A stretch of 64,000 nt of DNA from NCBI RefSeq assembly GCF_011045215.1, contig NZ_CP049201.1; one strand, given 5' to 3'. Each line of letters begins with the position of its first letter. The stretch's first letter is position 1. This DNA is from Escherichia coli. Lineage in GTDB: Bacteria; Pseudomonadota; Gammaproteobacteria; Enterobacterales; Enterobacteriaceae. Below are positions 17,238-31,194 of the stretch, in pieces. The notes under the pieces are model-generated. The model worked only from the letters and a program-made list of their open reading frames with translations, had not been told where the DNA came from and ran no database searches. Made by a program: the position numbers and the translations under genes.

Positions 17238-17420
17238 ATGCCGGATGCGACGCTTGCCGCGTCTTATCCGGCCTACGGGATTGCACATGTAGAGCGGATA
17301 AAGCGTTCACGCCGCATCCGCCAGTGGCGCGGTGCAATTGCCGGATGCGACGCTTGCCGCGTCTTATCCGGCCTACGGGATTGCACATGTAGTGCGGATA
17401 AGGCTTCACGCCGCATCCGC
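17238..17420. repeat. BIME/REP cluster (two near-identical ~85-bp units)
   Basis: Unit gccggatgcgacgcttgccgcgtcttatccggcctacgggattgcacatgtag...gcggataa..cacgccgcatccgc present twice between eutG and eutH. Confidence 0.7.
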
Positions 17421-17452: not shown

Positions 17453-18679
17453 ATGGGAATTAACGAAATCATCATGTACATCATGATGTTCTTTATGCTG
17501 ATAGCTGCCGTAGACAGGATCCTGTCGCAGTTCGGCGGTTCTGCTCGTTTCCTCGGTAAGTTCGGTAAAAGTATCGAAGGATCAGGCGGTCAGTTCGAAG
17601 AAGGCTTTATGGCAATGGGCGCACTGGGCCTGGCGATGGTCGGTATGACCGCGCTGGCACCGGTACTGGCTCACGTACTCGGGCCGGTAATTATCCCGGT
17701 TTACGAAATGCTCGGCGCAAACCCGTCAATGTTCGCCGGAACGCTGCTGGCGTGCGATATGGGCGGCTTCTTCCTCGCCAAAGAGCTGGCGGGCGGCGAC
17801 GTAGCAGCGTGGCTATACTCTGGGTTAATTCTCGGGTCGATGATGGGGCCAACGATTGTGTTTTCCATTCCGGTGGCGCTCGGCATTATCGAACCTTCTG
17901 ACCGTCGTTATCTGGCGCTCGGCGTGCTGGCGGGCATTGTGACCATTCCGATTGGTTGTATCGCTGGTGGTCTGGTAGCTATGTACTCCGGTGTGCAGAT
18001 CAACGGCCAGCCGGTGGAATTCACTTTCGCCCTGATCCTGATGAACATGATCCCGGTGATCATTGTTGCGATTCTGGTGGCGCTGGGGCTGAAATTCATC
18101 CCGGAAAAAATGATCAACGGCTTCCAGATCTTCGCCAAATTCCTCGTTGCATTGATCACCCTCGGTCTTGCCGCTGCGGTAGTGAAATTCCTGCTTGGCT
18201 GGGAACTGATCCCCGGTCTGGATCCTATCTTTATGGCCCCTGGCGATAAACCCGGTGAGGTGATGCGCGCCATTGAAGTTATCGGTTCTATCTCCTGCGT
18301 TCTGTTAGGGGCGTATCCGATGGTGCTGCTGCTGACCCGCTGGTTTGAAAAACCGCTGATGAGCGTCGGTAAAGTGCTGAATATGAACAACATCGCGGCA
18401 GCCGGCATGGTGGCAACGCTTGCCAACAACATCCCGATGTTCGGCATGATGAAGCAGATGGATACCCGCGGCAAAGTCATCAACTGCGCCTTCGCCGTTT
18501 CTGCTGCTTTCGCCCTGGGCGACCACTTAGGGTTCGCCGCTGCCAACATGAATGCCATGATCTTCCCGATGATTGTCGGCAAGTTGATCGGCGGCGTAAC
18601 GGCGATTGGCGTGGCGATGATGCTGGTGCCAAAAGACGACGCGACCGCAGCTAAAACCGAAGCGGAGGCACAATCGTGA
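17453..18679 (+). CDS. eutH: Ethanolamine permease EutH
   Basis: 408-aa highly hydrophobic multi-pass membrane ORF in eut operon. Confidence 0.9.
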   Translation: MGINEIIMYIMMFFMLIAAVDRILSQFGGSARFLGKFGKSIEGSGGQFEEGFMAMGALGLAMVGMTALAPVLAHVLGPVIIPVYEMLGANPSMFAGTLLACDMGGFFLAKELAGGDVAAWLYSGLILGSMMGPTIVFSIPVALGIIEPSDRRYLALGVLAGIVTIPIGCIAGGLVAMYSGVQINGQPVEFTFALILMNMIPVIIVAILVALGLKFIPEKMINGFQIFAKFLVALITLGLAAAVVKFLLGWELIPGLDPIFMAPGDKPGEVMRAIEVIGSISCVLLGAYPMVLLLTRWFEKPLMSVGKVLNMNNIAAAGMVATLANNIPMFGMMKQMDTRGKVINCAFAVSAAFALGDHLGFAAANMNAMIFPMIVGKLIGGVTAIGVAMMLVPKDDATAAKTEAEAQS

Positions 18680-20079
18680 ACACTCGCCAGCTACTGAGCG
18701 TCGGTATCGATATCGGCACTACCACCACCCAGGTGATTTTCTCCCACCTGGAACTGGTTAACCGTGCGGCGGTGTCGCAGGTGCCGCGCTACGAATTCAT
18801 CAAACGCGAAATTAGCTGGCAAAGCCCGGTGTTCTTTACCCCTGTCGATAAACAGGGTGATTTAAAAGAAGCGGAACTGAAATCGCTGATTTTAGAGCAA
18901 TATCAGGCTGCGGGCATTGCACCGGAAAGCGTTGATTCTGGTGCCATCATCATCACCGGTGAAAGCGCGAAAACCCGCAATGCTCGCCCGGCGGTGATGG
19001 CGCTCTCTCAGTCGCTGGGCGATTTTGTCGTTGCCAGCGCCGGGCCGCACCTCGAATCCGTGATCGCCGGTCACGGAGCCGGGGCACAAACCCTTTCTGA
19101 ACAACGGCTGTGTCGGGTACTGAATATCGACATCGGCGGTGGCACCGCGAACTACGCCCTGTTCGATGCCGGAAAAATCAGCGGCACTGCCTGCCTCAAC
19201 GTCGGTGGTCGCCTGCTGGAAACCGACAGCCAGGGGCGCGTGGTTTACGCTCATAAACCGGGGCAGATGATTGTGGATGAGTGCTTCGGCGCAGGCACCG
19301 ACGCCCGTTCGCTGACCGGCGCGCAGCTGGTGCAGGTTACCCGGCGGATGGCAGAGCTGATTGTCGAAGTGATTGACGGAACGCTCTCGCCGCTCGCGCA
19401 GGCATTGATGCAAACCGGTTTGCTGCCCGCAGGTGTTACGCCCGAAATCATTACGCTTTCTGGCGGCGTGGGCGAATGTTATCGCCACCAGCCCGCCGAC
19501 CCGTTCTGTTTTGCCGATATTGGCCCGCTTCTGGCAACGGCGCTGCATGACCATCCGCGCCTGCGTGAGATGAACGTGCAGTTTCCGGCGCAAACCGTGC
19601 GTGCCACGGTGATTGGCGCGGGGGCACATACCCTTTCGCTCTCTGGCAGCACAATCTGGCTTGAGGGCGTACAACTGCCGCTGCGCAATTTGCCGGTGGC
19701 GATCCCGATTGATGAAACGGATCTGGTGAGTGCCTGGCAACAGGCGCTGATTCAACTGGATCTTGATCCCAAAACTGACGCGTACGTGCTGGCGCTTCCC
19801 GCCTCGCTGCCTGTGCGTTACGCCGCGGTACTGACGGTCATCAACGCGTTGGTCGATTTCGTCGCGCGTTTTCCGAATCCGCATCCCCTGCTGGTGGTGG
19901 CCGGGCAGGACTTTGGTAAAGCTCTGGGCATGTTGTTGCGCCCACAGCTACAACAACTCCCGTTGGCAGTCATTGACGAAGTGATTGTCCGCGCGGGGGA
20001 CTATATCGACATTGGTACGCCTCTTTTTGGCGGATCGGTTGTGCCGGTGACGGTGAAATCACTCGCATTTCCTTCCTGA
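18676..20079 (+). CDS. eutA: Ethanolamine ammonia-lyase reactivase EutA
   Basis: 467-aa ORF, 4-nt overlap with eutH; eut operon synteny; followed by the inserted element. Confidence 0.9.
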   Translation: MNTRQLLSVGIDIGTTTTQVIFSHLELVNRAAVSQVPRYEFIKREISWQSPVFFTPVDKQGDLKEAELKSLILEQYQAAGIAPESVDSGAIIITGESAKTRNARPAVMALSQSLGDFVVASAGPHLESVIAGHGAGAQTLSEQRLCRVLNIDIGGGTANYALFDAGKISGTACLNVGGRLLETDSQGRVVYAHKPGQMIVDECFGAGTDARSLTGAQLVQVTRRMAELIVEVIDGTLSPLAQALMQTGLLPAGVTPEIITLSGGVGECYRHQPADPFCFADIGPLLATALHDHPRLREMNVQFPAQTVRATVIGAGAHTLSLSGSTIWLEGVQLPLRNLPVAIPIDETDLVSAWQQALIQLDLDPKTDAYVLALPASLPVRYAAVLTVINALVDFVARFPNPHPLLVVAGQDFGKALGMLLRPQLQQLPLAVIDEVIVRAGDYIDIGTPLFGGSVVPVTVKSLAFPS

Positions 20080-20172
20080 ATACTGTAGTTATCAGGCGTG
20101 GCGCTGGGTTGCGGGGTGTTAGTGGGATTATATCCGGCTGTGTATCCGGTCGGGGTGATTGGTCTGTATAGC

Positions 20173-20194
20173 AAAACCCGGCGCGGGGCCGGGT
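20173..20194 (-). terminator. Intrinsic terminator (minus-strand orientation)
   Basis: On minus strand reads ACCCGGCCCCGCGCCGGGTTTT: GC stem CCCGGC/GCCGGG followed by U-run, 7 nt after stop of the 20201-20761 gene; identical copy at 21822-21843. Confidence 0.6.
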
Positions 20195-20200
20195 GAACTA

Positions 20201-20761
20201 TCATTCAGGGAACAAGTTGATTTGAAGCAAACTGCCAATGTATTTACCAGTGCTTTTAATTTTTCGCTTTGATGGCTTACACGAATTCAGGTTGACACCA
20301 GCCTGGCTAGATATTGGCTTGTATTGCCGCTCCGCCAGTACGATCAGGTCTGCCGCGTCTTTTAGCTTTCCATCGTTAGCCAGTTCCAATGCTCGATCCG
20401 CCATTTGCCCGCATTGTTGAATCAGCTTAAGTTGCGATACCTCCAGTCGCAATTGCTGGATTCGTTCTACCACTTTCGCCCTAATGCGCTTAGTTTCACG
20501 CATTCCCATTCTTAATGCCTGGTTGCCAGTAAGTGAGTAAACCTCTTTTTCTTTCCTGAAGTTTGCGGCTTTACCGTCAGCTTGGACGCGCATTTTATGC
20601 GCTTCCAAGAATTCGCCCTCCAATTCATCCCTGATCTTCGCGTTGAATCTGTCGTTCTTGAGTTCATTTAACCCTTCCGCCTTGCGGATCTGGTTGATTA
20701 ACTCCAACAATTCATCACTGCGGATACGCCACTCGCTATCAACCTGTACCAAGTCAAACAT
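20201..20761 (-). CDS. Hypothetical phage protein (186 aa from ATG with GGGAG RBS; coiled-coil, possibly regulatory)
   Basis: ORF with good RBS upstream of internal ATG at 20761 (track start 20854 is TTG); no confidently recognised domain. Confidence 0.55.
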   Translation of the reverse strand: MFDLVQVDSEWRIRSDELLELINQIRKAEGLNELKNDRFNAKIRDELEGEFLEAHKMRVQADGKAANFRKEKEVYSLTGNQALRMGMRETKRIRAKVVERIQQLRLEVSQLKLIQQCGQMADRALELANDGKLKDAADLIVLAERQYKPISSQAGVNLNSCKPSKRKIKSTGKYIGSLLQINLFPE

Positions 20762-20924
20762 GTTGTTGCTCCCGTTTTGCTGCCATAGGGCAACGGCTCG
20801 CCAGCCTTTATCACCTCCTTTAGTTGTTGCGATTCTTAACTGAATGGTTATCAAAACGCTGCGTTAATATCATTGATATGTATCAAATTTGTTTTGTGAC
20901 GCGACAATGCCTTGTGAATATCAA

Positions 20925-20949
20925 TAAAAAACCCAGCGCTATGGCTGGG
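20925..20949 (-). terminator. Intrinsic terminator (minus-strand orientation)
   Basis: Minus strand CCCAGCcatagcGCTGGG followed by UUUUUU, 45 nt downstream of stop of 20995-21723 gene. Confidence 0.5.
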
Positions 20950-20994
20950 CTTCTCTTGATGGCTGGTTTTGTAGCTAATCGTTGGCTTTAAGGG

Positions 20995-21723
20995 TTAAGC
21001 AACAATATTAATCCCGCTCCTTGTCGCTGCCTCTTTGGCAATTTTCCCCTCGTCCTCCAGTTTAGCTAACGCCTTGTACATCCAGTGGCGGCCCGGTGCG
21101 CCATGCAGCTTGCCATCTTTGCCGATCTTACCGAACGCATGTAACGCCAAATCGTCGATAGTCCCCTTGTATCCGCCTTGCTCCTTAAGCCATTGCTCAA
21201 GCTGTTCTACTTTGAATTTTGCCGGACGTCCGCCAGCCGCTTTTTGTTGTTTAGCTGGTTCTTCTGCAATATCGCTTTTGTTGTTTAAGTCCGTCATGAC
21301 TGGTTCTCCTACAATAGCGTCGCCCTTGGTCTCGATTTGTTGATTAACTGGTTTGTCTACAATATCGATTTTGTTGTTTAGCTGGTTTTTCAACATATCA
21401 ATCTCAGCCTTTAGCGCCTCGTTTTCTCTGGCTAGTTCTTCGCAACGCTTGATAAATTTTTGTTCCATGCCGTCCGGGCTATCAACGTGCGCCGTACCCA
21501 TTACGATCTTCCCGTTGCTATCGAAGATGACAGCTTGCCAACCGACTGCGGCGAGCATTTTAAACACATCATCAGCGGTCTTGTTTGTTGTATCGCGACG
21601 CCCTTTAAACTTGTGGCTAGCAGCGCCTTTGCCTTTGAAGCCCATTGCCTCAGCGACATCTTGCCGCGTCATCTTGCGAGCGCGCTTGTTCATGCCTAAC
21701 TCAACCCAATCCATGTATTCCAT
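20995..21723 (-). CDS. Hypothetical phage protein with internal tandem peptide repeats (242 aa)
   Basis: ORF with GAGGT RBS; DNA and protein contain imperfect tandem repeats (LNNKIDIVDKPVNQQ / LNNKSDIAEEPAKQQ); basic N-terminal region possibly DNA-binding. Confidence 0.6.
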   Translation of the reverse strand: MEYMDWVELGMNKRARKMTRQDVAEAMGFKGKGAASHKFKGRRDTTNKTADDVFKMLAAVGWQAVIFDSNGKIVMGTAHVDSPDGMEQKFIKRCEELARENEALKAEIDMLKNQLNNKIDIVDKPVNQQIETKGDAIVGEPVMTDLNNKSDIAEEPAKQQKAAGGRPAKFKVEQLEQWLKEQGGYKGTIDDLALHAFGKIGKDGKLHGAPGRHWMYKALAKLEDEGKIAKEAATRSGINIVA

Positions 21724-21821
21724 ACATTACCTCATTTTGTCGCTAAACGTTTTGCTTTCTAATTTATCAACAAAAAAGCGGGTGATGGTAGCCGCTTTGA
21801 TGGGGAAGTTGACAGGGATCA

Positions 21822-21843
21822 AAAACCCGGCGCGGGGCCGGGT
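21822..21843 (-). terminator. Intrinsic terminator (minus-strand orientation), identical copy of 20173-20194
   Basis: Same 22-bp sequence aaaacccggcgcggggccgggt; 18 nt downstream of stop of AlpA-like gene 21861-22091. Confidence 0.6.
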
Positions 21844-21860
21844 ATTAGCAAGTTAGATGA

Positions 21861-22091
21861 TTACTGGGTATCGCTGTCAGAAAGTAGTCCAATTGATTTA
21901 AAGAATTTCATCACATCCTGATAGCGATACATGACGCCCCGCCCGGTTCCCAGCACATCAACAGGGTCGGGGAATGGAGTTCCGTTCTGTTCCCATTTCT
22001 TACGCCACGAATAAAACGTTCCCCTGCTAATTCCGCCCAGCATCCGGCAGATGGCAGGGCGGCTAAGAAGGATTACTTCATTTTTATCCAT
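21861..22091 (-). CDS. AlpA-family phage transcriptional regulator / excisionase-like HTH protein (76 aa)
   Basis: Motif LSRPAICRMLGGISRGTFYSWRKK...FPDPV typical of AlpA/Xis-type HTH; GGGAGA RBS. Confidence 0.6.
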   Translation of the reverse strand: MDKNEVILLSRPAICRMLGGISRGTFYSWRKKWEQNGTPFPDPVDVLGTGRGVMYRYQDVMKFFKSIGLLSDSDTQ

Positions 22092-22110
22092 TGTTTAATC
22101 TCCCGTGTGT

Positions 22111-22299
22111 TTATTTTGCGTAGATTAAGGCAAATGCTCTTTTGGCTTTGCTTAGTTCGTATTCGCGTTTTTCTATGATTGCCATCAGTTCTTGTGCGGT
22201 GGCTGGCACGCCCGCTCTTATCAGCGCAATCTTAGTATCCATAGCGCACACTCTTTCACGCACCATATCGAAGATAATTTCCGCTCTATCGTGTTTCAT
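22111..22299 (-). CDS. Small hypothetical protein (62 aa)
   Basis: ORF with strong GAGGTGA RBS 5 nt upstream of ATG; 19 bp upstream of AlpA-like gene, likely co-transcribed. Confidence 0.5.
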   Translation of the reverse strand: MKHDRAEIIFDMVRERVCAMDTKIALIRAGVPATAQELMAIIEKREYELSKAKRAFALIYAK

Positions 22300-22648
22300 G
22301 ATTTCACCTCATATTTGTTGCTAAACCTTGTAAACCCTTGTTTGACTACAAAATACACCTGGTTAAGCGACTGATAAAATGATTTAGGTCAATTTATTGG
22401 TTGATGATTTATGTCTGATTGGATTTGTCTACAAATGGCAGGTTAGTCAACAAATGATGAAACCAGGGAATGGCGGTTATAATGTCAGCGGGGATTGTGA
22501 GAAAGGCCCGGGTAGGTTGCTAACTGCCTGGGCCTTTATTTTTGGCGCGTGTACGTGAAATCTGGAAAATTTGCAGGGTAGTTGTTGAGGGATTTTTCGC
22601 GTAGGAGCGTGAAGGGTCCGCCAGTCATCGCCCTGACGTAGCGGTGAA

Positions 22649-23050
22649 TTACTTGCGAGGCTCACCCATCGGCCAGGCACCTTCATTGCGACGATAACCA
22701 ATCCGGTACTCTTCCGGCAGCGGCAAGCCCTGCTCACGATATGGACGCAGATCGAAGCCAAAAACAGGATCGTCGTCGTAGGCGAGGAATAGCCCGGCAG
22801 GCTCTGCCACGCGTTCGATAATCAGTTCCCCATCTTCAACGAAGAAGATCAGATTATCGCGAAAGTCCGTTACCTCACTGACGTGATAACATTCGGCATG
22901 TGCGTCCAGCCAGGCTTCTCGGTATTCCTGAATCTCGGCTTCTGACCATGTTGAAACAGGACGCTCCCAAATTCCCAGGCTGGATTTGCCCTGGCGGGAG
23001 AATAATTTTGCCTCTTTGCTCTGCTCTGGTTTTCTGTTTAAAAAGCTCAT
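22649..23050 (-). CDS. Hypothetical protein (133 aa)
   Basis: ORF with AAGGAGAA RBS; no recognised domain. Confidence 0.55.
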   Translation of the reverse strand: MSFLNRKPEQSKEAKLFSRQGKSSLGIWERPVSTWSEAEIQEYREAWLDAHAECYHVSEVTDFRDNLIFFVEDGELIIERVAEPAGLFLAYDDDPVFGFDLRPYREQGLPLPEEYRIGYRRNEGAWPMGEPRK

Positions 23051-23186
23051 TATTCTTCTCCTTTGAACGGATTGTTCTTGCTCTCTAATAACTTAGCGCG
23101 ACCCAGTAACGTCCGGGCAAGCGCCTCCGCCTTCCTTAGCCTAAGCCCTGCGTCTTCTGCGTCCAGATCTACATTCCTGATAGCCT

Positions 23187-23450
23187 CTACAGCCTGCTCC
23201 GCTGCGTCCGGGCGTGAATCCACTTAAATATGCCGATATGCTCACGAAAGTCTGGATGCTCATATTGCCAGCGGCAGATTGTTCTGAAGCTCGGCATGTC
23301 AGGCATGTTGCCAATCTCTCTGAGACTATGGCCTTCAGCTACCAGCAAGCAGATTTCTTCAGCGATAGCGACCCCATACTTAGCGCTTTTTCTGCTTAAA
23401 CTTGTGACATCAACAGGTAAGTTATTGATTTCTTTATCATCACCCTTCAT
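23187..23450 (-). CDS. Small HTH protein resembling the DNA-binding domain of phage terminase small subunits (87 aa)
   Basis: Motif AEGHSLREIGNMPDMPSFRTICRWQYEHPDFRE resembles TerS-type HTH; GGGGGTAA RBS; family assignment is from memory and tentative. Confidence 0.4.
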   Translation of the reverse strand: MKGDDKEINNLPVDVTSLSRKSAKYGVAIAEEICLLVAEGHSLREIGNMPDMPSFRTICRWQYEHPDFREHIGIFKWIHARTQRSRL

Positions 23451-23525
23451 AATTACCCCCGAATTGATAGCGAATTGATAGCGAATTACCCCGAATTACC
23501 CCCGAATTACCCCCGAATCACCATC
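23451..23525. repeat. Tandem array of about 6.5 copies of an 11-bp unit (AATTACCCC(C)G x4 and AATTGATAGCG x2)
   Basis: Directly visible: aattaccccc g aattgatagc g aattgatagc g aattacccc g aattaccccc g aattaccccc g aatcaccatc, exactly filling the gap between the 93-aa gene stop and the 87-aa gene start. Confidence 0.85.
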
Positions 23526-23527
23526 AT

Positions 23528-23809
23528 TTAACCCTCGCCTACGTCTGCGTCGATGCTTGCTAACTGGCTGTGTAGATCGCGTTCAATCATTTTTACCTTT
23601 TTCACAAAATCCCTTTCCTCGGCGGTGGCGGGCGCGCCCTGGGCTATGTTTTTCGTGAGGTCGTGGAAAGTGCCGAAAACATAAAGGGAGAACAGCCTTA
23701 ATTGTTGCCGCTTCATTGGCAAATCACTGTTGCTATGTTTGATCTCAGCGACGCCTTTCGAAATAACACGGGCCATCCCATGACAAATTCTTAACGTAAG
23801 CGCAGACAT
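23528..23809 (-). CDS. Hypothetical protein (93 aa)
   Basis: ORF with GGGGAG RBS; no recognised domain. Confidence 0.5.
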   Translation of the reverse strand: MSALTLRICHGMARVISKGVAEIKHSNSDLPMKRQQLRLFSLYVFGTFHDLTKNIAQGAPATAEERDFVKKVKMIERDLHSQLASIDADVGEG

Positions 23810-23930
23810 GATATTTACTCCCCGACTGGTATAATGAACGTGGTTTTAAACGTTGCTATTTGCTAACCATTTAATCTGTTAACTCAATTTCGCATTGTTG
23901 GCCCGGCACGAACACCGGGCTTTTCTTTAC

Positions 23931-24272
23931 CTATTCGAAATAGCTTCCAATATCCGGTGTCCGGGTATCAGTTTTCCGGGTCGGCTCGAAGTACGATTCC
24001 AGATCCGGCGTTTTCGGCCCACGCTGGGCGTTGGCGGCGGGTTGCTTTTCTTCTGGCTGTTCCGGCTGTTTACTACCAAATCGGCGCTCCAGTTGGTCCA
24101 TCAGCACTACCATCATTTCCTGGACCAGCTTTTCATCGGCTTTATCAAGGTTCTCCAATACCATCGCCATCCCTTTGCGGAATTTAAGCTCAGCGTCGTC
24201 CGGTTCCGGTGCTGATTCGTTTGCTTTAACTGCCAGGGCGATCCGGCGTTTTGCTTCATCCAAAAAATTCAT
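23931..24272 (-). CDS. Hypothetical acidic protein ending in repeated SYFE motif (113 aa)
   Basis: ORF with GGGGGAA RBS overlapping stop of upstream gene; C-terminus ...DLESYFEPTRKTDTRTPDIGSYFE. Confidence 0.5.
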   Translation of the reverse strand: MNFLDEAKRRIALAVKANESAPEPDDAELKFRKGMAMVLENLDKADEKLVQEMMVVLMDQLERRFGSKQPEQPEEKQPAANAQRGPKTPDLESYFEPTRKTDTRTPDIGSYFE

Positions 24273-24277
24273 TTTGT

Positions 24278-24721
24278 TTATTCCCCCATGTGGAAATAGT
24301 CATCTAAGCGGCGATTAAACTCGTCGCTGCCATCGAAATATTCACGGATACTTTTATTGACCAGATCATCACCGTCGAAATACTGGCGCGTGAAATCGTC
24401 CAATTCCCCATCGAAGTATTGACGTGTGAAATCGTCTAATTCCCCTTCAAAATATTGACGCGCATCAGGCGCTCTGTTTGGCGCTGTAGCAATCTCAGAT
24501 TGATTGCCCTGTAACTTATCGACGTTTGCTAAATACACGCCCAGTGAGCTGTTTGTTCCCATTACCGCAAGCATTTTCCGGCGATCTGCCATGTTCGGCG
24601 CGAGCGATGATAATTGAGCTTTAATTTTGTCCACTTCCTGATTAACAATACGGTCAATCAGTGGTTGATTCGTGCGAATAATTTCCTGTGCCAACTGGCG
24701 AATATATTCTTTGCGTGTCAT
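24278..24721 (-). CDS. Hypothetical protein with C-terminal tandem RQYF(D/E)GELDDFT repeats (147 aa)
   Basis: ORF with GGAGAT RBS; encoded by about 3.5 tandem 36-bp DNA repeats near 24330-24465. Confidence 0.55.
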   Translation of the reverse strand: MTRKEYIRQLAQEIIRTNQPLIDRIVNQEVDKIKAQLSSLAPNMADRRKMLAVMGTNSSLGVYLANVDKLQGNQSEIATAPNRAPDARQYFEGELDDFTRQYFDGELDDFTRQYFDGDDLVNKSIREYFDGSDEFNRRLDDYFHMGE

Positions 24722-24739
24722 TTCTTATCTCCGTTCATC

Positions 24740-25123
24740 TCATTTCTGTAAAAAACCCATACCGTGGCCCAGGCGATTTGAAATTTTCCCGGCAAGCATC
24801 CGGCGAATATGTTTTTCGTTGATGATGTCGTGAGTGACCGGATCTTCACCTTTCATACATTCCGGCATCTGGTCAAACAATACGGAAGCGCCTTCATCAA
24901 TAATCTCAGTTAAGACTGCTGGCAGCATATTAATGATGCGTTCTGCTTCGTCGTTCATTGCTTTATCGAACGCTTTTTTATCCATTGCTTCGGCGGATGG
25001 TTTGTAATTGTCGCCAGTCAGGTTAAGGTAAGTGTTGTTTGGGTGATACATGGCATTCACTCCTTTTACTTTGATTGTTGCGATTTCTTTGTTTTTGTTA
25101 ATTGTGGTGCCTTTGACTTTCAT
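24740..25123 (-). CDS. Hypothetical protein (127 aa)
   Basis: ATG overlaps stop of HNH gene (ATGA), suggesting translational coupling; no recognised domain. Confidence 0.5.
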   Translation of the reverse strand: MKVKGTTINKNKEIATIKVKGVNAMYHPNNTYLNLTGDNYKPSAEAMDKKAFDKAMNDEAERIINMLPAVLTEIIDEGASVLFDQMPECMKGEDPVTHDIINEKHIRRMLAGKISNRLGHGMGFLQK

Positions 25124-25539
25124 GCTGCTTCTTCCTTCAATAATTGTGGCAATTTGCCTGTTAGTTCGATTTCTTCATTAATAGATGCAAGTAACTGTCT
25201 CAGTTTGCGATGTAATAGCTGGTGACGCTCTCTCGGCATTTTTACCAGGTTGCTTAAGCGGTTATTCTGCGGATCGTAGTCCCGGTGATGGATATCATAT
25301 TTTCGCTCATCGTAAACACCGTAGCACCATAACCAGGCAGCCTTTTCTATTGTCATGCAGGTACGTTTTCCGTTGCTTAAACAAATGGTTATACTCAGGT
25401 GACCGCGATGTTTTTCGTTTAAGCTGCCTTTAATTACCTGGCCTGTGCTGCGGTTGTGAAATAAACCAGTTTCAGGGTCGTAGTGATATTTCTGTCGTAA
25501 TATATCAACTGATAACCGTAGTCTTGTAAGATTGTCCAT
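25120..25539 (-). CDS. HNH homing-type endonuclease (139 aa)
   Basis: Motif YDIHHRDYDPQNNRLSNLVKMPRERHQ (HH...N...N...H) typical of phage HNH nucleases; GAGGTAG RBS. Confidence 0.7.
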   Translation of the reverse strand: MDNLTRLRLSVDILRQKYHYDPETGLFHNRSTGQVIKGSLNEKHRGHLSITICLSNGKRTCMTIEKAAWLWCYGVYDERKYDIHHRDYDPQNNRLSNLVKMPRERHQLLHRKLRQLLASINEEIELTGKLPQLLKEEAA

Positions 25540-25571
25540 GATGTTCTACCTCAATGTGATTGCTGTGTTAA

Positions 25572-25757
25572 TTATCTTTCTTCTTGTGGCCTATTCAGCC
25601 AGGCCTCGATCTCGCTACGCCAGAATAATAAACGACAATTTCGCGGCGTAAATGGTTGGGGTATTGTCTTATCTTTTAATAGCCATCTTCGAATCGTTCT
25701 TGTTGATACCCCCGCTATTAATGCGAAAGCTCGCAGATCTATAACTTCATCTCTCAT
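25572..25757 (-). CDS. AlpA-like HTH regulator (61 aa from ATG with GAGGT RBS)
   Basis: Sequence LIAGVSTRTIRRWLLKDKTIPQPF...WRSEIEAWL matches AlpA/Xis-type HTH pattern; track ORF start 25862 is a TTG extension. Confidence 0.55.
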   Translation of the reverse strand: MRDEVIDLRAFALIAGVSTRTIRRWLLKDKTIPQPFTPRNCRLLFWRSEIEAWLNRPQEER

Positions 25758-26537
25758 GTTCTTACCTCGATTAAAAAGGACCGCCCCCAGGGAAAGAAGA
25801 AAGAGGAAAGAGGAAAGAGGAAAAACTTCCTGGAGGCGGGTAATTCGGATTCCTTGAATCAATATCCCATGTGATACTTAATATTATAAAGGGCGGCGGG
25901 CTATGTCGCTATTTTTGCCATAGTGTGACACCATTAATTTATTAACAAAAAGTGCTATTTATTAAATCTTTTTTCGGCAGGTGCAAGAAAAATAATTGCG
26001 ACACGGTAGGGTAGCGGGCGATAATAATCATGTAAGGAGTAGCCACCTTACGCCTCCAAATGTGATCGATAAAAATAATAGTCTCAATTCTTTCTCCCGC
26101 TTCTCGGCGGTTTTTTTGCCTGCAATCACACATCAAAAAAACACATCGAATTGATATGCCTTTAAAACGCAATATAACGCATTTTGACGGCCTTAATTTT
26201 TGCCTATCCACTCGGAAGCGTAAGCCTGTTTTGATTCGTCTGGCGTGGAATGGTGCGGCGGTAATATCAGATCTCAGCGTTCTGTGTGGTGGGATGGAAT
26301 AGCCTGGCAGGATCTGCGTGTGATTTCATTCATCCAACCTTGGATGAATGGTCCGATCTGGTCAGTAGTCCGGCACAAATAAAAAGCGCCTGCGGGCGTA
26401 GCAGACGCTTTGTGTACAGGCTTATCAGTACGGGATGTGCACGAATGATTATACCACCCTCAGAAAAACGTTTGCTTTTGCACTTAAACGGATAAGTGGT
26501 ATTTCTTGGTCTTCATTGGTTTTAGCTCACCATAGGC

Positions 26538-26765
26538 TCATTTAGGTGCGCCCCTGTCGATAATTCGGTACATGTTCTCGGTATATCTCCCGTTAATCAC
26601 CGTTCTGGTAACAACAATCACACCGTTTTCCTCCAGAAAGGCAATGGCCCGCTTCACTCCCTGGCGGCTTACACCGGATAGCTGCGCCAGCCTGTCAATG
26701 GAGATGTTGTATTTGTCCGGCTGGCTTGTCAGGATCTGGAATACCGCTCGTGCTGTTTTCGTCAT
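26538..26765 (-). CDS. Small winged-helix DNA-binding protein (75 aa), candidate regulator
   Basis: Sequence ISIDRLAQLSGVSRQGVKRAIAFLEENGVIV has HTH character; divergent from the plus-strand cassette; RBS weak. Confidence 0.45.
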   Translation of the reverse strand: MTKTARAVFQILTSQPDKYNISIDRLAQLSGVSRQGVKRAIAFLEENGVIVVTRTVINGRYTENMYRIIDRGAPK

Positions 26766-27037
26766 GGCAAAAACTCATTGAAATTGGATACCCTTAGAAC
26801 GCTCTCAAACGCTCCGTAATGCGATGAGAATTTTACCTAAGCAAGTGTAGCTCTTTATTAGTTTTATGATGCCGTAGGCCGATAGAAGGTGCGCTCTCTG
26901 AAGTTTCATTGTCTATCAGTGGTGGGTAATGCTGCCTTTACTATTGGCGTCAAGAAAATCACTGGTGTAGATTGGGCGAATAGTTTACTATTCAAACAAG
27001 GCACAATGGCCTTAGCGGATTGATGTCAGGAGATACC

Positions 27038-27385
27038 ATGTCAAAAATAGTTACTTTGTTTGCGACTAAGCGAGAAGGGAAATCCCTTTCTGTGCGCACT
27101 CGTAAGCCAAAAGCTATGACTGGCTTGCGTAAAACAAATCGTCTGACGCATCTTGACGCGTTAGCGTATCGACTAGGATACCAGTTGGTGCGCGGTAAAA
27201 GTGTCATGTTTCGCTACACTGCTACTCTCGATCACGAAGAAAACAAAGTGATGAATGCGGCCTCGCCTATGGCTGTACCACGAGTAAAAAAAATGACGTT
27301 CACACAAGCGTGTGATTTATCAAAAGATTTATTCGATTCACGAGAAGAACGCTTAAAGAGTGTAAGCTTTGATGGTCCAGAATGA
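27038..27385 (+). CDS. Basic 115-aa protein, candidate partner (antitoxin or regulator) of downstream YafO-like gene
   Basis: ATG at 27038 preceded by AGGAGA RBS; stop overlaps start of next gene by 14 nt; basic N-terminus and acidic C-terminus; no recognised family. Confidence 0.5.
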   Translation: MSKIVTLFATKREGKSLSVRTRKPKAMTGLRKTNRLTHLDALAYRLGYQLVRGKSVMFRYTATLDHEENKVMNAASPMAVPRVKKMTFTQACDLSKDLFDSREERLKSVSFDGPE

Positions 27386-27887
27386 ATTTATTGGTAAGGT
27401 CTACAGTGATAACAAGTTTAAAACAAACGATGAATTAAAGAGCTTTAAGGATTCGTTTATTTATCATTGGAGATATGGACATCATCCTGATTTTGGAAAG
27501 GATACTCTTTTCCATAAACCCCCGTGTGTATATCCTATCCATTTACGTAAAGTCCATGTAAATATTGGTCTTTATACCAATCAGTACGGCTATAGCGGGA
27601 CAGAACAATGCTGGGATGACTGGTCTACTGGTCGTTATGGTCCCGGTGGTTTCGAAAAAGTTACCCCTACATCTGATGCTTATCTTATATACGCTGTATG
27701 TAAAAATAGAAATGCTGGCGTGTTAGACTTCTGGTTTCCTCCCGCACACAAAAACGCTGAGTTCGAATCCTCTGTACAGTTTGTGGCTGAGATGGCTGAT
27801 AAGTTTTATGAGTCTATCAAGGCGGACCCGATGCCGCGCGATCAGAATCCTTGGCATACGGGGTATATAGTTAAAAAACCAGCCTGA
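27372..27887 (+). CDS. YafO-family toxin-like protein (171 aa)
   Basis: Motifs F-I-Y-H-W-R-Y-G...PDFGKDTLF, YPIHLRKVHVN and SDAYLIYAV line up with recalled YafO motifs (FISYKRDG...PDIFGRDALY, ERVAHIHLAN, DEAHLVYCQG); similarity judged from memory, not computed. Confidence 0.45.
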   Translation: MVQNEFIGKVYSDNKFKTNDELKSFKDSFIYHWRYGHHPDFGKDTLFHKPPCVYPIHLRKVHVNIGLYTNQYGYSGTEQCWDDWSTGRYGPGGFEKVTPTSDAYLIYAVCKNRNAGVLDFWFPPAHKNAEFESSVQFVAEMADKFYESIKADPMPRDQNPWHTGYIVKKPA

Positions 27888-28438
27888 TCCACGCAATACT
27901 GATTGTTTTTGGCCTTGTATGGTGTGGTCTGATTTGAGGCAAAATTATTTAATCCCTTAAAAAACTAACTTCAAAAGACTAAAACCAGGGGGATGGTCCC
28001 TCTCGCTCCGCTCCAGGTACCATCCCTGTCGGGATGGGTTTATTGTAGAGTTAAAATTAATTACTCACATCGTCACACCTTGCGAAAGTTTTGCTCAATT
28101 ATCATTCAAACATAGCACAAAAAATATTCGATTTAGTTAGTGTGCACTGACTTTTTTATCAATTTACTTTCATTCGAAAGTCATGGGTTAAATATTAATC
28201 ATCTGGCTGTGGCACGCATGGATTCACCGAGGGTATTTTGGACCATTTGGTCAAAATTCATAAGTACATGATTTCATGGTGATTTATTTTTCTGTATCTT
28301 GCTTTCATTCGAAAGTGGAAACGAAGAATTGGCAATTTATTGATTCAGATCATTGACATTGCATATTTGTGGCGGTTGTCACGGTTGTTTTTTGAGCGCT
28401 TCAACCGTCGATATTGAGTATAAACCCGGCCTTATAGT

Positions 28439-29644
28439 TCACGGTTCAAGTGGATTACCGTCACCAGCCAATATTGAATCAATAGCGTCGGCGTAATCCT
28501 GCATCATTGCTCGCCGTTGCTTCAGGTAGGCCGCCTGGTTATAAACGCCGCGCACACCTTTCGGGACGTGGGCCAATTGGATTTCGATCCAGTCTGGTGA
28601 GTATCTGCCAGACTCATTAAGCGCCGTTGAAAAGGTGGTCCGCCAGCCATGACCAGTGGCAATGGATTTATAGCCGATCCTCTCAAGCGCCTTCAGTATC
28701 GCGCTGGCTGAAAGTGGCTTATCCATGAATCGACCAGGGAAGACGAAAGCACTGTATCCGCTCCTTGTAAACTGGTCCTGTAATAGCTCCACCGCCTGCC
28801 GTGATAGCGGGACCACATGCGGGCGGCGGGCCTTCATGACTTCAGCGGGCAATGTGATTGTTGCGTCCTCCAGGTTTATCCATTCCCAACGGCACAAACG
28901 CAGTTCTGCGGTCCTTAATGCCGTTAATATAAGCAAACGTATTGCCGTCTGAATCTGGACGCTCCCGGCCCTCTCAAGGGCTTTGTAGAAGGCCGGAATT
29001 TCACTAATCGGTATCCACGCGTTGTGACCAGGTCGGCGGGCCTTCAGTGCCGTATCAAGATCTGCAACCGGATTCCTCGTTACCAGTTCGGTGATAACGG
29101 CAAACTTGAAGATCTCACCGATGCGCTGGCGTAGCTTGCGGGCCTGCTCCGGTGCGGTACGTTCTTTCTTCTGGAGTAATGCCAGCACGTCACGGGCGGT
29201 TATATCGACAATCGACCGCTTGCCAAGTACCGGATAGACGTCTTTTTCTAGGGCCGATCTGACCTGTTTTGCATAGGATTCCGACCACCCTCCAACCCTA
29301 GTAGCAAACCAGTCTTCCGCCACCTTCTTAAATCCTGCCGCCATGTTGAGCGCATCAATGGCTTTTTCCTTGCGGGCTTGTTCCACTGGGTTAATTCCAT
29401 TGGCAATAAGGGATCTGCTCTCCGTGGCGCGCCTGCGTGCTTCTTTGAGTGTGATTAGCGGGTAAACACCAATAGCCTGCAAAAACTCTCGTTTATTCAA
29501 CCAATACCTGAATCGCCAGTATTTCGAACCGTTGGGATGCACCAGCAAAAACAGCCCCGGCGTCAGTGAATCGGTGAGTTTATAGGGCTTGTCCTGCGGC
29601 TGTGCGGCGTCTATGGCCTTTGCTGTGAGTGGTGTCTTGCTCAA
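28439..29644 (-). CDS. intZ: Tyrosine-type site-specific integrase (prophage integrase)
   Basis: 401-aa ORF with phage integrase features (N-terminal arm-binding domain, C-terminal catalytic region with ...HGWRTT...); sits at the element end beside eutB as intZ does in E. coli K-12; start appears to be TTG. Confidence 0.8.
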   Translation of the reverse strand: MSKTPLTAKAIDAAQPQDKPYKLTDSLTPGLFLLVHPNGSKYWRFRYWLNKREFLQAIGVYPLITLKEARRRATESRSLIANGINPVEQARKEKAIDALNMAAGFKKVAEDWFATRVGGWSESYAKQVRSALEKDVYPVLGKRSIVDITARDVLALLQKKERTAPEQARKLRQRIGEIFKFAVITELVTRNPVADLDTALKARRPGHNAWIPISEIPAFYKALERAGSVQIQTAIRLLILTALRTAELRLCRWEWINLEDATITLPAEVMKARRPHVVPLSRQAVELLQDQFTRSGYSAFVFPGRFMDKPLSASAILKALERIGYKSIATGHGWRTTFSTALNESGRYSPDWIEIQLAHVPKGVRGVYNQAAYLKQRRAMMQDYADAIDSILAGDGNPLEP

Positions 29645-29832
29645 AACCGGATACCTTGATTTAACGACTGGATAACCCCGATCATGTATCCGGCGCGTTC
29701 GGTTGCGTTCGGCAGGATAAGTAACGGGCGTATTAAGTGGAACACCTTACAGGACAAGGGCTAACGATGAAATAGAATTGTTTGCAGGCTGTGAGAAATG
29801 TTAATCGTCACTTCTTCCTGAGGGAACGACTT

Positions 29833-31194
29833 ATGAAACTAAAGACCACATTGTTCGGCAATGTATATCAGTTTAAGGATGTAAAAGAGGTGCTGGCTAA
29901 AGCCAACGAACTGCGTTCGGGGGATGTGCTGGCGGGCGTCGCAGCGGCAAGCTCACAGGAGCGCGTGGCGGCAAAGCAGGTGTTGTCGGAAATGACCGTA
30001 GCGGACATCCGCAATAATCCGGTGATTGCCTATGAAGATGACTGCGTGACGCGGCTGATTCAGGACGATGTTAACGAAACGGCCTACAACCAGATTAAAA
30101 ACTGGAGCATCAGCGAACTGCGTGAGTATGTGCTGAGCGATGAAACCAGCGTGGACGACATTGCCTTTACCCGCAAAGGGCTGACCTCGGAAGTGGTCGC
30201 GGCGGTAGCGAAGATTTGCTCCAACGCGGACCTGATCTACGGCGCGAAGAAAATGCCGGTAATCAAAAAGGCCAATACCACCATCGGTATTCCGGGCACC
30301 TTCAGCGCCCGTTTGCAGCCAAATGACACTCGTGACGACGTGCAAAGTATCGCCGCGCAAATCTACGAAGGGCTTTCCTTCGGGGTGGGCGATGCGGTGA
30401 TCGGCGTTAACCCGGTGACTGACGACGTGGAAAACTTAAGCCGCGTGCTGGATACCATTTATGGCGTGATCGACAAATTCAACATCCCAACTCAGGGCTG
30501 CGTACTGGCGCACGTCACCACTCAGATCGAAGCGATTCGTCGTGGCGCACCAGGCGGGCTGATTTTCCAGAGTATCTGTGGCAGTGAAAAAGGGCTGAAA
30601 GAGTTTGGCGTGGAACTTGCGATGCTCGACGAAGCGCGCGCAGTGGGTGCAGAGTTCAACCGTATCGCCGGGGAAAACTGCCTCTACTTCGAAACCGGAC
30701 AAGGTTCAGCGCTATCCGCTGGCGCTAACTTCGGCGCAGACCAGGTGACGATGGAAGCACGTAACTATGGGCTGGCGCGTCATTACGATCCGTTTATCGT
30801 CAACACCGTGGTCGGCTTTATTGGGCCGGAGTATCTCTACAACGACCGCCAGATTATCCGTGCGGGCTTAGAAGATCACTTTATGGGCAAGCTGAGCGGC
30901 ATCTCTATGGGCTGTGACTGCTGTTACACCAACCACGCTGACGCTGACCAGAACCTCAACGAAAACCTGATGATCCTGCTCGCCACCGCAGGCTGCAACT
31001 ACATCATGGGGATGCCGTTGGGCGATGACATCATGCTCAACTACCAGACCACGGCCTTCCACGACACTGCCACTGTGCGTCAGTTACTCAACCTGCGCCC
31101 GTCACCGGAGTTTGAACGCTGGCTGGAAAGCATGGGCATTATGGCAAACGGTCGCTTGACCAAACGGGCGGGCGATCCGTCACTGTTCTTCTGA
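29833..31194 (+). CDS. eutB: Ethanolamine ammonia-lyase large subunit
   Basis: 453-aa product from ATG at 29833 (MKLKTTLFGNVYQFKDVKEV...); EutB family. Confidence 0.9.
   Translation: MKLKTTLFGNVYQFKDVKEVLAKANELRSGDVLAGVAAASSQERVAAKQVLSEMTVADIRNNPVIAYEDDCVTRLIQDDVNETAYNQIKNWSISELREYVLSDETSVDDIAFTRKGLTSEVVAAVAKICSNADLIYGAKKMPVIKKANTTIGIPGTFSARLQPNDTRDDVQSIAAQIYEGLSFGVGDAVIGVNPVTDDVENLSRVLDTIYGVIDKFNIPTQGCVLAHVTTQIEAIRRGAPGGLIFQSICGSEKGLKEFGVELAMLDEARAVGAEFNRIAGENCLYFETGQGSALSAGANFGADQVTMEARNYGLARHYDPFIVNTVVGFIGPEYLYNDRQIIRAGLEDHFMGKLSGISMGCDCCYTNHADADQNLNENLMILLATAGCNYIMGMPLGDDIMLNYQTTAFHDTATVRQLLNLRPSPEFERWLESMGIMANGRLTKRAGDPSLFF

What the first reader, a model, noticed from the sequence alone, without database searches (positions are those of the whole stretch)
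28167..28316. Two exact copies of CTTTCATTCGAAAGT 135 bp apart in the integrase 3-prime flank
The 15-bp motif contains the inverted repeat CTTTC/GAAAG and occurs at 28167-28181 and 28302-28316, each preceded by a T-rich tract. It lies in the about 550-bp non-coding region between the convergent cassette and int. This could be a pair of operator or arm-type recombinase binding sites, or the boundaries of a small transcribed unit.
Basis: seen in the sequence. Interest (0 to 1): 0.4.

Follow-up and report, generated by a model that had tools for sequence, protein, structure and literature searches.

The report
Host YciT repressor sites in island
The two repeated 15-base motifs next to the integrase gene match the DNA site recognised by the E. 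coli sugar-phosphate repressor YciT, so this cryptic prophage-like island probably places part of itself under a host metabolic regulator.

Summary
CTTTCATTCGAAAGT occurs exactly twice in the 64-kb window, at 28167-28181 and 28302-28316. Both copies lie in the 551-bp gap between a YafO-like cassette and intZ, inside a CPZ-55-like island inserted between eutA and eutB.

The pair belongs to a ~465-bp non-coding module (~27958-28425) that sits beside intZ in about 269 of 5,426 E. coli genomes. The module is much better conserved than synonymous sites of int. The 135-bp spacing is the same in all 21 sequences that keep both copies.

The motif is very probably the operator of the host DeoR-family repressor YciT.
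- The full 16-mer ACTTTCATTCGAAAGT lies 33 nt upstream of ybiY, and its 14-mer lies upstream of ybiV and ybiU. Published data show YciT represses ybiY, ybiU and ybiW.
- Eight further published YciT ChIP-exo peaks centre on TTTC-N4/5-GAAA palindromes.
- A weight matrix built only from six non-ybi sites ranks the two island copies first and second of 127,970 window positions (22.7 and 22.5 bits; next best 13.95).

They are not integrase arm sites, cos elements, coding sequence or a known RNA family.

What the pair controls is not shown. A plus-strand structured RNA ending at the terminator at 28367-28395 is the best guess. Binding by YciT is inferred, not tested.

The parts
28166..28181 (+). Copy 1: ACTTTCATTCGAAAGT, a predicted YciT operator. 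It is identical to the element upstream of ybiY.
   Evidence: 22.7 bits, rank 1 of 127,970 window positions. 12 of 16 columns are invariant in 22 sequences.
28301..28316 (+). Copy 2: GCTTTCATTCGAAAGT, a predicted YciT operator in the same orientation, 135 bp from copy 1.
   Evidence: 22.5 bits, rank 2. Spacing is 135 bp in 21 of 21 sequences that keep both copies, with no indel between them.
27958..28425 (.). The conserved non-coding module that carries the pair. It is always adjacent to the intZ stop codon.
   Evidence: Alignments. Mean pairwise identity is 0.87, against 0.73 at int four-fold degenerate sites. No ORF is conserved. Flanking genes on the other side vary.
28082..28095 (+). Invariant block GCGAAAGTTTTGCT. 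It shares CGAAAGT with the right half of the motif and could be a half-site or a small + strand hairpin with a G.T pair.
   Evidence: Longest invariant run in 13 and in 22 sequences. The G.T pair is possible only on the + strand.
28235..28257 (+). Palindrome ATTTTGGACCAnTTGGTCAAAAT, midway between the two copies.
   Evidence: Four single-side substitutions all keep G.U pairing on the + strand and break it on the - strand.
28367..28395 (+). Intrinsic-terminator-like hairpin (GTGRCGGTTGTCAC) followed by TTGTTTTTTG. It reads as a terminator on the + strand only and ends 44 nt before the int stop codon.
   Evidence: Conserved in most relatives and replaced in the K99B/C41 group.
28333..28345 (-). 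AATCAATAAATTG, a perfect match to the IHF consensus WATCAANNNNTTR, inside an invariant block 17 nt from copy 2.
   Evidence: Read from the sequence. The block AATTTATTGATT is invariant. Consensus match only; binding not tested.
28191..28196 (+). Weak -10-like AATATT, starting 10 nt after copy 1. Candidate promoter element, speculative.
   Evidence: Relaxed scan; present in 11 of 13 sequences. The stricter scan found no promoter.
28324..28329 (+). Weak -10-like AAGAAT, starting 8 nt after copy 2. Candidate promoter element, speculative. It would give a ~60-nt RNA ending at the terminator.
   Evidence: Relaxed scan; 11 of 13 sequences. A at position 2 and T at position 6 are kept in the variants AATAAT, AAAAAT and AAGGAT.
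27990..28037 (.). A 41-nt palindromic unit plus an overlapping short hairpin at the left edge of the module. Copy number is 0-3 in relatives. It looks like a terminator on both strands.
   Evidence: The arms covary in L003 and L011 (GGGTGGA/TCCACCC).

Best explanation
The two copies are a pair of high-affinity operators for YciT, the host chromosomal DeoR-family repressor. YciT has an HTH_DeoR domain and a DeoRC sugar-phosphate sensor domain. In E. coli it represses the ybiU, ybiV, ybiW and ybiY genes and fsaA, the anaerobic 1,5-anhydroglucitol pathway. The operators lie in the same orientation, 135 bp centre to centre (about 13 helical turns), inside a conserved non-coding module next to the integrase gene of a CPZ-55-like island. 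Proposed mechanism: YciT oligomers occupy both sites, probably cooperatively or by looping as other DeoR-family repressors do, and keep transcription in the module silent. The most likely target is a + strand non-coding RNA that starts just downstream of one or both operators and ends at the terminator at 28367-28395. When the YciT effector appears, presumably a sugar phosphate of the 1,5-anhydroglucitol pathway in the anaerobic gut, the repressor leaves and the transcript is made. Shown here: the sequence identity to YciT-associated sites, the conservation of the module, and the fixed spacing. Inferred: that YciT binds here, that it loops the DNA, which transcript it controls, and which effector acts.
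For: 1. The exact 16-mer of copy 1 lies 33 nt upstream of the ybiY start in K-12. The 14-mer ACTTTCATTCGAAA also lies upstream of ybiV and ybiU. The 15-mer is conserved upstream of Salmonella pflE/ybiY although its flanks differ.
2. Published data: deletion of yciT raises ybiY by 7.7 and ybiU by 7.0 log2 units, and YciT ChIP-exo peaks of signal/noise 45 and 24 lie at this locus (PMC8464067). Reg-Seq with DNA-affinity mass spectrometry enriches YciT on the ybiY promoter, at a site overlapping the RNA polymerase footprint. The same approach found YciT on the phnA promoter.
3. I converted the ChIP-exo coordinates from genome version 2 to version 3. Eight further peaks then have a TTTC-N4/5-GAAA palindrome inside the peak, at or near its centre: ybiO, ompX-3', pdeR, yfcV, sixA, rdcA/phnA, yjiT and yjjI.
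4. A weight matrix built only from six sites outside the ybi locus scores the island copies at 22.7 and 22.5 bits. These are ranks 1 and 2 of 127,970 window positions; the next best is 13.95, and the training sites themselves score 18.3-23.7.
5. The five perfect sites share only the core; their flanks are no more alike than random sequence. That is the pattern of binding sites, not of duplicated DNA.
6. Each 12-nt core is invariant at 11 of 12 columns in 22 sequences. The spacing is 135 bp in 21 of 21 sequences with both copies, with no indels between the copies although indels occur on both sides.
7. The module is under constraint: identity 0.87 against 0.73 at int four-fold degenerate sites.
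8. For a + strand transcript: a + strand-only terminator. The RNAalifold consensus energy is -30.5 kcal/mol on the + strand (z = -4.1; 0 of 100 column shuffles reach it) against -16.3 on the - strand (z = -1.2). Single-side substitutions in hairpins mostly keep G.U pairs on the + strand.
Against: - No binding experiment exists for this island, and none could be run here.
- No convincing sigma-70 promoter lies near either copy. The standard scan found none, and a relaxed scan gave only 7-8 of 12 matches. The regulated transcript is therefore hypothetical.
- Folding of the single window sequence is not better than shuffles on either strand (z = -0.8 and -0.55).
- The + strand terminator is not conserved in the K99B/C41 subgroup.
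- The ChIP-exo peaks labelled ybiY and ybiV lie about 100-150 bp from the perfect motifs after coordinate conversion. The Reg-Seq authors also noted this discrepancy.
- The published YciT logo is an image I could not read. The consensus used here is my own reconstruction.
- The Hfq-CRAC supplementary files for O157 that I searched contained no eutA, eutB or intZ entry and none of the ECs330x/ECs331x locus tags expected around eutB.
Confidence: 0.6

Rival explanations
1. The copies act only as RNA. They are two identical short stem-loops (ACUUUC-AUUC-GAAAGU) in a structured + strand non-coding RNA of the island, and the resemblance to YciT sites is coincidental.
For: The + strand consensus structure is significant while the - strand is not. 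G.U asymmetry favours the + strand. Compensatory changes extend the hairpins around copy 1 (TTTA/TAAA to TTTG/CAAA) and copy 2 (C-G to T-A). There is a + strand terminator.
Against: The hairpins are weak, about -4.4 kcal/mol in a 39-nt context. The single-sequence fold is not significant. No promoter was found and there is no Rfam match. A coincidental 16 of 16 identity to the ybiY element, plus ranks 1 and 2 under an independently built YciT matrix, is very unlikely. This model is compatible with the main one if the RNA is the thing YciT controls.
Confidence: 0.14
2. The copies are operators for an island-encoded DNA-binding protein: the 75-aa HTH_11 protein, the AlpA-like protein or the XRE-like protein.
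For: The island encodes several small HTH proteins. Conserved palindromes in a mobile element are often sites for its own regulators.
Against: The 75-aa HTH gene is absent from the annotated stretches of several islands that keep the module (L004, L008, L010, L011). It shows no similarity to YciT. The motif occurs nowhere else in the island, including upstream of the regulatory genes. Identity to host YciT sites points to the host protein.
Confidence: 0.08
3. The copies are arm-type binding sites for the IntZ integrase.
For: They are direct repeats close to int. P4-type integrases have an N-terminal arm-binding domain.
Against: The copies lie about 1.5 kb from the nearer att core (29814-29821) and 8 kb from the other (20072-20079), and neither island end carries a copy. 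A different repeat, TATCCGG, clusters at both ends (20131, 20143, 29647, 29687). The int genes diverge strongly (four-fold site identity 0.56-0.69 to the window) while the motif stays fixed. K-12 CPZ-55 has intZ but no motif.
Confidence: 0.02
4. The copies are terminase-recognition (cosB R-type) elements of a satellite packaging site.
For: Related islands encode a TerS-like protein and an HNH endonuclease. E. coli PICIs have their own, still undefined, cosB sites. A perfect IHF consensus lies next to copy 2.
Against: No cosN- or cosQ-like sequence lies nearby; the best cosN-like match is at 25891, 2.3 kb away. The region has no similarity to any phage, plasmid or IMG/VR contig. It does not resemble the EcCICFT073 cos1 sequence printed (compared by eye).
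Confidence: 0.03
5. The pair has no function of its own. It is a relic duplication carried along in a conserved region.
For: 56% of module columns are invariant, so the motif is not uniquely conserved.
Against: Only 18 nt are shared between the copies and the flanks are unrelated. Spacing is fixed. The sequence equals a host transcription-factor site.
Confidence: 0.03

Closest known systems
YciT operators of the E. coli ybiU/ybiV/ybiW/ybiY-fsaA locus and other YciT ChIP-exo sites (PMC8464067; bioRxiv 10.1101/2025.05.13.653802; PMC7567609)
   Same: The core is identical: ACTTTCATTCGAAAGT equals the ybiY site, and ACTTTCATTCGAAA equals the ybiV and ybiU sites. It fits the TTTCAnnYGAAA consensus found inside eight other peaks and scores as high as the training sites.
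   Different: The island sites lie in horizontally acquired DNA, between two convergent genes rather than upstream of a coding gene. They form a tandem, same-orientation pair 135 bp apart. No adjacent promoter or regulated gene has been identified.
Multi-operator control by DeoR-family repressors (DeoR at deo O1/O2/OE, GlpR tandem operators); from general knowledge
   Same: The family is the same (HTH_DeoR plus DeoRC). There are two or more palindromic operators whose fixed spacing is close to a whole number of helical turns.
   Different: Oligomeric state and looping are not known for YciT. Nothing here shows cooperativity.
Short terminator-proximal sRNAs of prophages and islands, such as AgvB and AsxR in EHEC (PMC4104026)
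   Same: The candidate ~60-nt + strand product (28336-28395) would have an AU-rich, invariant single-stranded 5' part followed by a terminator hairpin and a U tail.
   Different: No sequence similarity and no Rfam match. The Hfq-CRAC supplement showed no entry for this locus. The promoter is only a weak consensus match.
Integrase-proximal regulation in E. coli PICIs and P4-like elements (PMC6092414)
   Same: The island has the satellite layout: int at one end, AlpA-like and HTH genes, a TerS-like gene, an HNH gene, and accessory genes between int and the regulators.
   Different: No element comparable to this module is described there. K-12 CPZ-55 itself lacks it.

Membership tests
YciT (DeoR-family) operator | Sequence matches sites occupied or regulated by YciT | tested here: met
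   16 of 16 identity to the ybiY element. A matrix built from six independent ChIP-exo sites gives 22.7 and 22.5 bits, ranks 1 and 2 in the window.
YciT (DeoR-family) operator | Palindromic arms TTTC/GAAA with a 4-nt spacer and the flanking A/G-C...G-T | tested here: met
   Both copies have this form.
YciT (DeoR-family) operator | Physical binding by YciT | not testable with these tools
   Needs EMSA, footprinting or ChIP in a strain that carries the module. K-12, the strain used for ChIP-exo, lacks the module.
YciT (DeoR-family) operator | Overlaps or adjoins a promoter whose output changes with YciT | tested here: inconclusive
   Only weak -10-like elements lie 8-10 nt downstream of each copy. 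The standard scan found none.
Arm-type integrase binding sites | Lie in the P and P' arms, within a few hundred bp of the att core, usually on both arms | tested here: not met
   Cores are at 20072-20079 and 29814-29821. The motif lies 1.5 kb and 8 kb away and is absent from both ends.
Arm-type integrase binding sites | Co-vary or co-occur with the integrase type | tested here: not met
   K-12 intZ has no motif. The int genes diverge widely while the motif is fixed.
cos site (cosQ-cosN-cosB) of lambda-type helpers or PICIs | A cosN nicking sequence and cosQ adjacent to the repeated R elements | tested here: not met
   No GGGCGGCGACCT-like sequence lies within 2 kb. No phage similarity was found.
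Known RNA family (Rfam 15) | Covariance-model match at or near the gathering score | tested here: not met
   The best hit is 20.6 bits against a threshold of 115; all hits are far below their thresholds.
Independent sRNA gene | Promoter, conserved structure and intrinsic terminator on one strand | tested here: inconclusive
   Terminator: present. Consensus structure on the + strand: z = -4.1. Promoter: not found. Single-sequence fold: not significant.
Protein-coding small ORF | An ORF conserved in frame across relatives | tested here: not met
   No ORF is present in all 22 sequences. Frameshifting indels occur in the L003 and L011 groups.

The most novel reading that the evidence does not exclude
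The module is a YciT-gated non-coding RNA gene of a phage satellite or cryptic prophage family. The island would read the host's 1,5-anhydroglucitol and anaerobic-gut status through two borrowed operators. It would use that signal to control its integrase (the RNA converges on int), its own induction, or host or phage targets. A related possibility is that, once the island replicates, the two perfect sites titrate the roughly 100 YciT molecules per cell and derepress the host ybi pathway.
Probability: 0.22. Interest if true: 0.7.

Novelty: new member of a known kind. Interest (0 to 1): 0.5.

Why it matters
YciT is a recently characterised regulator, and its operator has not been written out in the papers I could read. 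The island pair, together with the ybi and ChIP-exo sites, gives a clear consensus: (A/G)CTTTCATTYGAAAG(T/G). If YciT does bind here, a mobile element found in about 5% of complete E. coli genomes, including O157:H7, has placed a strongly conserved non-coding module under a host sugar-phosphate repressor tied to anaerobic 1,5-anhydroglucitol catabolism. That would be a simple, testable case of an island sensing host metabolism. It would also give a handle on the function of an otherwise anonymous module that is better conserved than the integrase next to it.

Tried and rejected
- **Arm-type sites.** Rejected on position, and because a different repeat (TATCCGG) marks both island ends.
- **PICI cosB or R elements.** I read the Rpp and cos papers and searched for cosN. 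I also searched phages, plasmids and IMG/VR. No support.
- **Known RNA families.** None.
- **Small ORFs.** Not conserved.
- **int 3' UTR.** Unlikely as the general function. Five relatives have their own int terminator (GCCGGATTCGTCCGGC) before the module.
- **Widening the phylogeny.** This failed. An IntZ peptide scan of genome contigs returned only three distant integrases. The metagenome DNA pattern was too loose: of 120 stretches, only three were true homologues, all about 85-90% identical.
- **Published EHEC sRNA lists.** Nothing found at this locus. Esr41 and the Pas sRNAs map elsewhere.
- **Sigma-70, sigma-54, FNR and Fur sites.** I looked by eye and with scans and found nothing convincing.
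- **Island 75-aa HTH as a YciT mimic.** No similarity.
- **YciT ChIP-exo peaks inside K-12 CPZ-55** (near yffQ and yffS). They carry no TTTC-N4-GAAA motif but share GATGGGAGGTGAA, so I do not count them as support.
- **IS200/IS605-type or REP-like hairpin ends and type I toxin loci.** Considered from memory and dropped: the stems are too short, the locus is single-copy, and no conserved peptide exists.

Full report
**Observation.** The motif CTTTCATTCGAAAGT is present exactly at 28167-28181 and 28302-28316 on the + strand. These are the only two matches in the 64-kb window even when two mismatches are allowed; shuffles gave a mean of 0.17 matches. The repeat extends to 18 nt. Copy 1 reads ACTTTCATTCGAAAGT, with 6-nt arms around ATTC. 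Each copy follows a T-rich tract. The copies lie in a 551-bp gap between the stop of a YafO-family ORF (27369-27887, +) and the stop of intZ (28439-29644, -).

**Context.** The window carries the eut operon. A 9.7-kb CPZ-55-like island (20080-29821) is inserted directly after the eutA stop codon. An 8-bp core, CTTCCTGA, is repeated at 20072-20079 and 29814-29821, and eutB starts at 29833.
- The integrase is transcribed inwards from the eutB end.
- The island has the layout of a small phage satellite or cryptic prophage: an AlpA-like gene, a 75-aa winged-helix gene, an HNH endonuclease, an anti-repressor-like gene and an XRE-like gene.
- A TerS-like gene is frameshifted in the window, and a 2.2-kb gene found in a close relative is missing.

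**The motif belongs to a conserved non-coding module.**
- Megablast finds the region in 269 of 5,426 complete E. coli genomes, always on the chromosome and, in every locus I inspected, next to intZ.
- I collected 18 E. coli loci and three metagenome contigs that are true homologues.
- The module spans about 27958-28425. It is present whether the neighbouring genes are the YafO cassette, small hypothetical genes or nothing annotated, and whether the island sits in eut or in yghO.
- K-12 CPZ-55 lacks it.
- No ORF is conserved, and some lineages carry frameshifting indels.
- Mean pairwise identity of the module is 0.87, against 0.73 at four-fold degenerate sites of the adjacent int gene. The module is therefore constrained or recently spread.
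- In 22 distinct sequences, 56% of columns are invariant. Each 12-nt motif core is invariant at 11 of 12 columns.
- The two copies are 135 bp apart in all 21 sequences that keep both. No indel lies between them, although indels occur on either side.

**What the motif is not.**
- It is not an arm-type integrase site. It lies 1.5 kb and 8 kb from the two att cores, and neither end carries it. A different repeat, TATCCGG, clusters within about 175 bp of both cores.
- It is not part of a recognisable cos site. No cosN or cosQ lies nearby, and there is no similarity to phages, plasmids or IMG/VR.
- It matches no Rfam family.

**What the motif is.** A full-text search for the motif found it in an oligonucleotide covering the Salmonella pflE (ybiY) promoter. 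The homologous E. coli region, between fsaA and ybiY, contains the full 16-mer ACTTTCATTCGAAAGT although the flanks differ between the two species. In K-12 the 16-mer lies 33 nt upstream of the ybiY start. The 14-mer ACTTTCATTCGAAA recurs upstream of ybiV and of ybiU.

Published work links this locus to YciT, a DeoR-family regulator (HTH_DeoR plus DeoRC).
- YciT ChIP-exo peaks of signal/noise 45 and 24 lie at the locus.
- Deleting yciT raises ybiY by 7.7 and ybiU by 7.0 log2 units.
- Reg-Seq with DNA-affinity mass spectrometry enriches YciT on the ybiY promoter, at a site overlapping the polymerase footprint.

To test the motif independently, I converted the ChIP-exo coordinates from genome version 2 to version 3. 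The shift is +778 bp up to 1.3 Mb and +1,977 bp beyond; the total matches the length difference between the two versions, which I know from memory. I then read eight further peaks. Each holds a related palindrome inside the peak, at or near its centre:
- ybiO: CCTTTCACCCGAAAGG
- pdeR: ACTTTCGTTTGAAAAC
- rdcA/phnA: GTTTTCATTTGAAAGG (phnA is also a Reg-Seq YciT target)
- yjiT: ATTTTCATTTGAAATT
- yjjI: GCATTCATTTGAAAGT
- sixA: TCTTTCATCTGAAACC
- yfcV and ompX-3': 5-nt-spacer variants

A weight matrix made only from the six 16-nt sites outside the ybi locus scores the two island copies at 22.7 and 22.5 bits. They are the two best of 127,970 positions in the window. The next best scores 13.95, and the training sites score 18.3-23.7. 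The five perfect sites share nothing beyond the core, which is the signature of transcription-factor sites rather than of copied DNA.

**What the pair may control.** This part is inference. Several observations suggest that the + strand is transcribed.
- A hairpin followed by a T run at 28367-28395 reads as a terminator only on the + strand. It ends 44 nt before the int stop codon.
- With 22 sequences, the RNAalifold consensus energy is -30.5 kcal/mol on the + strand (z = -4.1; none of 100 column shuffles reach it) and -16.3 on the - strand (z = -1.2). Only 2 of 100 shuffles match the strand difference.
- Single-side substitutions in the clearly palindromic hairpins keep G.U pairs on the + strand about four times as often as on the - strand.
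- Compensatory changes extend the hairpins around both copies.

Against this:
- No acceptable sigma-70 promoter was found. There are only weak -10-like elements 8-10 nt after each copy.
- The single-sequence fold is not significant.
- One subgroup lacks the terminator.
- I found no published sRNA at the locus.

The simplest combined model has YciT bound at both operators, 13 helical turns apart, repressing one or two + strand starts. Their RNA would end at 28395 and converge on int. YbiW is the glycyl-radical enzyme of anaerobic 1,5-anhydroglucitol-6-phosphate breakdown. The natural inducer is therefore probably a sugar phosphate of that pathway; this too is inference.

**Open problems.**
- The ChIP-exo peaks labelled ybiY and ybiV lie 100-150 bp from the perfect motifs. 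The Reg-Seq authors noted the same offset.
- K-12 CPZ-55 has two modest YciT peaks (near yffQ and yffS) that carry no such motif. They share GATGGGAGGTGAA instead.
- Several other blocks of the module are as conserved as the motif, and YciT does not explain them: GCGAAAGTTTTGCT, AATTTATTGATT (which holds a perfect IHF consensus), ATCATTGAC, and the palindrome at 28235-28257.

**Verdict.** The 'operator' reading is right in kind, but the likely protein is the host repressor YciT, not the integrase or an island HTH protein. I treat this as a new pair of sites for a known regulator, set in an uncharacterised, strongly conserved module of a mobile island. Confidence is about 0.75 that these are YciT sites and about 0.35 that they gate a + strand RNA. 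Interest is moderate (0.5).

Noticed in passing
window 27990-28037 (and L004, L008, L012): A 41-nt palindromic unit, GGGATGGTCCCTCTCGCTnCGCTCnAGGTACCATCCC plus 4 nt, sits at the left edge of the module. Its copy number varies: 0 in L012, 1 in most, 2 in L004, 3 in L008. Its arms covary in L003 and L011 (GGGTGGA/TCCACCC). It overlaps a second short hairpin, which gives mutually exclusive stems and a terminator-like look on both strands.
   Followed up: partly
window 23451-23519: Iteron-like direct repeats (AATTACCCCCGAATT x3, CGAATTGATAG x2) lie directly upstream of the TerS-like gene. They could be an origin, an operator array or a packaging signal.
   Followed up: no
window 23053-23450 (-): The TerS-like gene, intact in L001 and L002, is split by a frameshift near 23208 in the window. 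The window island also lacks the 2.2-kb gene present in L001, so this copy looks degenerate.
   Followed up: partly
window 20131-20149 and 29647-29693: TATCCGG repeats lie at 20131 and 20143 (+), 29647 (-) and 29687 (+), within about 175 bp of the att cores (CTTCCTGA at 20072-20079 and 29814-29821). They are better candidates for IntZ arm-type sites than the motif under study. The heptamer is also common in REP elements elsewhere in the window.
   Followed up: partly
window 20173-20194 and 21822-21843: Two exact 22-nt copies of AAAACCCGGCGCGGGGCCGGGT, a GC-rich hairpin that looks like a terminator, lie 1.65 kb apart inside the island.
   Followed up: no
window 21243-21414: Three imperfect 45-nt direct repeats lie inside the XRE-like ORF (20995-21723, -), so the protein contains a repeated segment.
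   Followed up: no
window 28439-29644 versus relatives: The intZ genes next to a nearly identical module differ strongly: four-fold site identity is 0.56-0.69 to the window and protein identity is 91-93%. The breakpoints lie just past the int stop (about 28421) and just past the YafO stop (about 27929). The module therefore recombines as a unit of its own.
   Followed up: partly
K-12 NC_000913.3 2563379-2563424 and 2564907-2564952 (L013): Two published YciT ChIP-exo peaks fall inside K-12 CPZ-55, near yffQ and yffS. They lack the TTTC-N4-GAAA motif and share GATGGGAGGTGAA. Unexplained.
   Followed up: partly
window 27020-27887: A two-gene + strand cassette consists of a 121-aa ORF with no family match and a 172-aa YafO-family protein whose Pfam score is below threshold. 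It sits between int and the regulatory genes, in the slot where satellites carry accessory or defence genes. It is absent from several islands that keep the module.
   Followed up: no
window 17292-17373: An Rfam match to naRNA4 (65.3 bits, above its gathering score) lies in the eut operon just upstream of the eutH-sized ORF (17453-18679).
   Followed up: no
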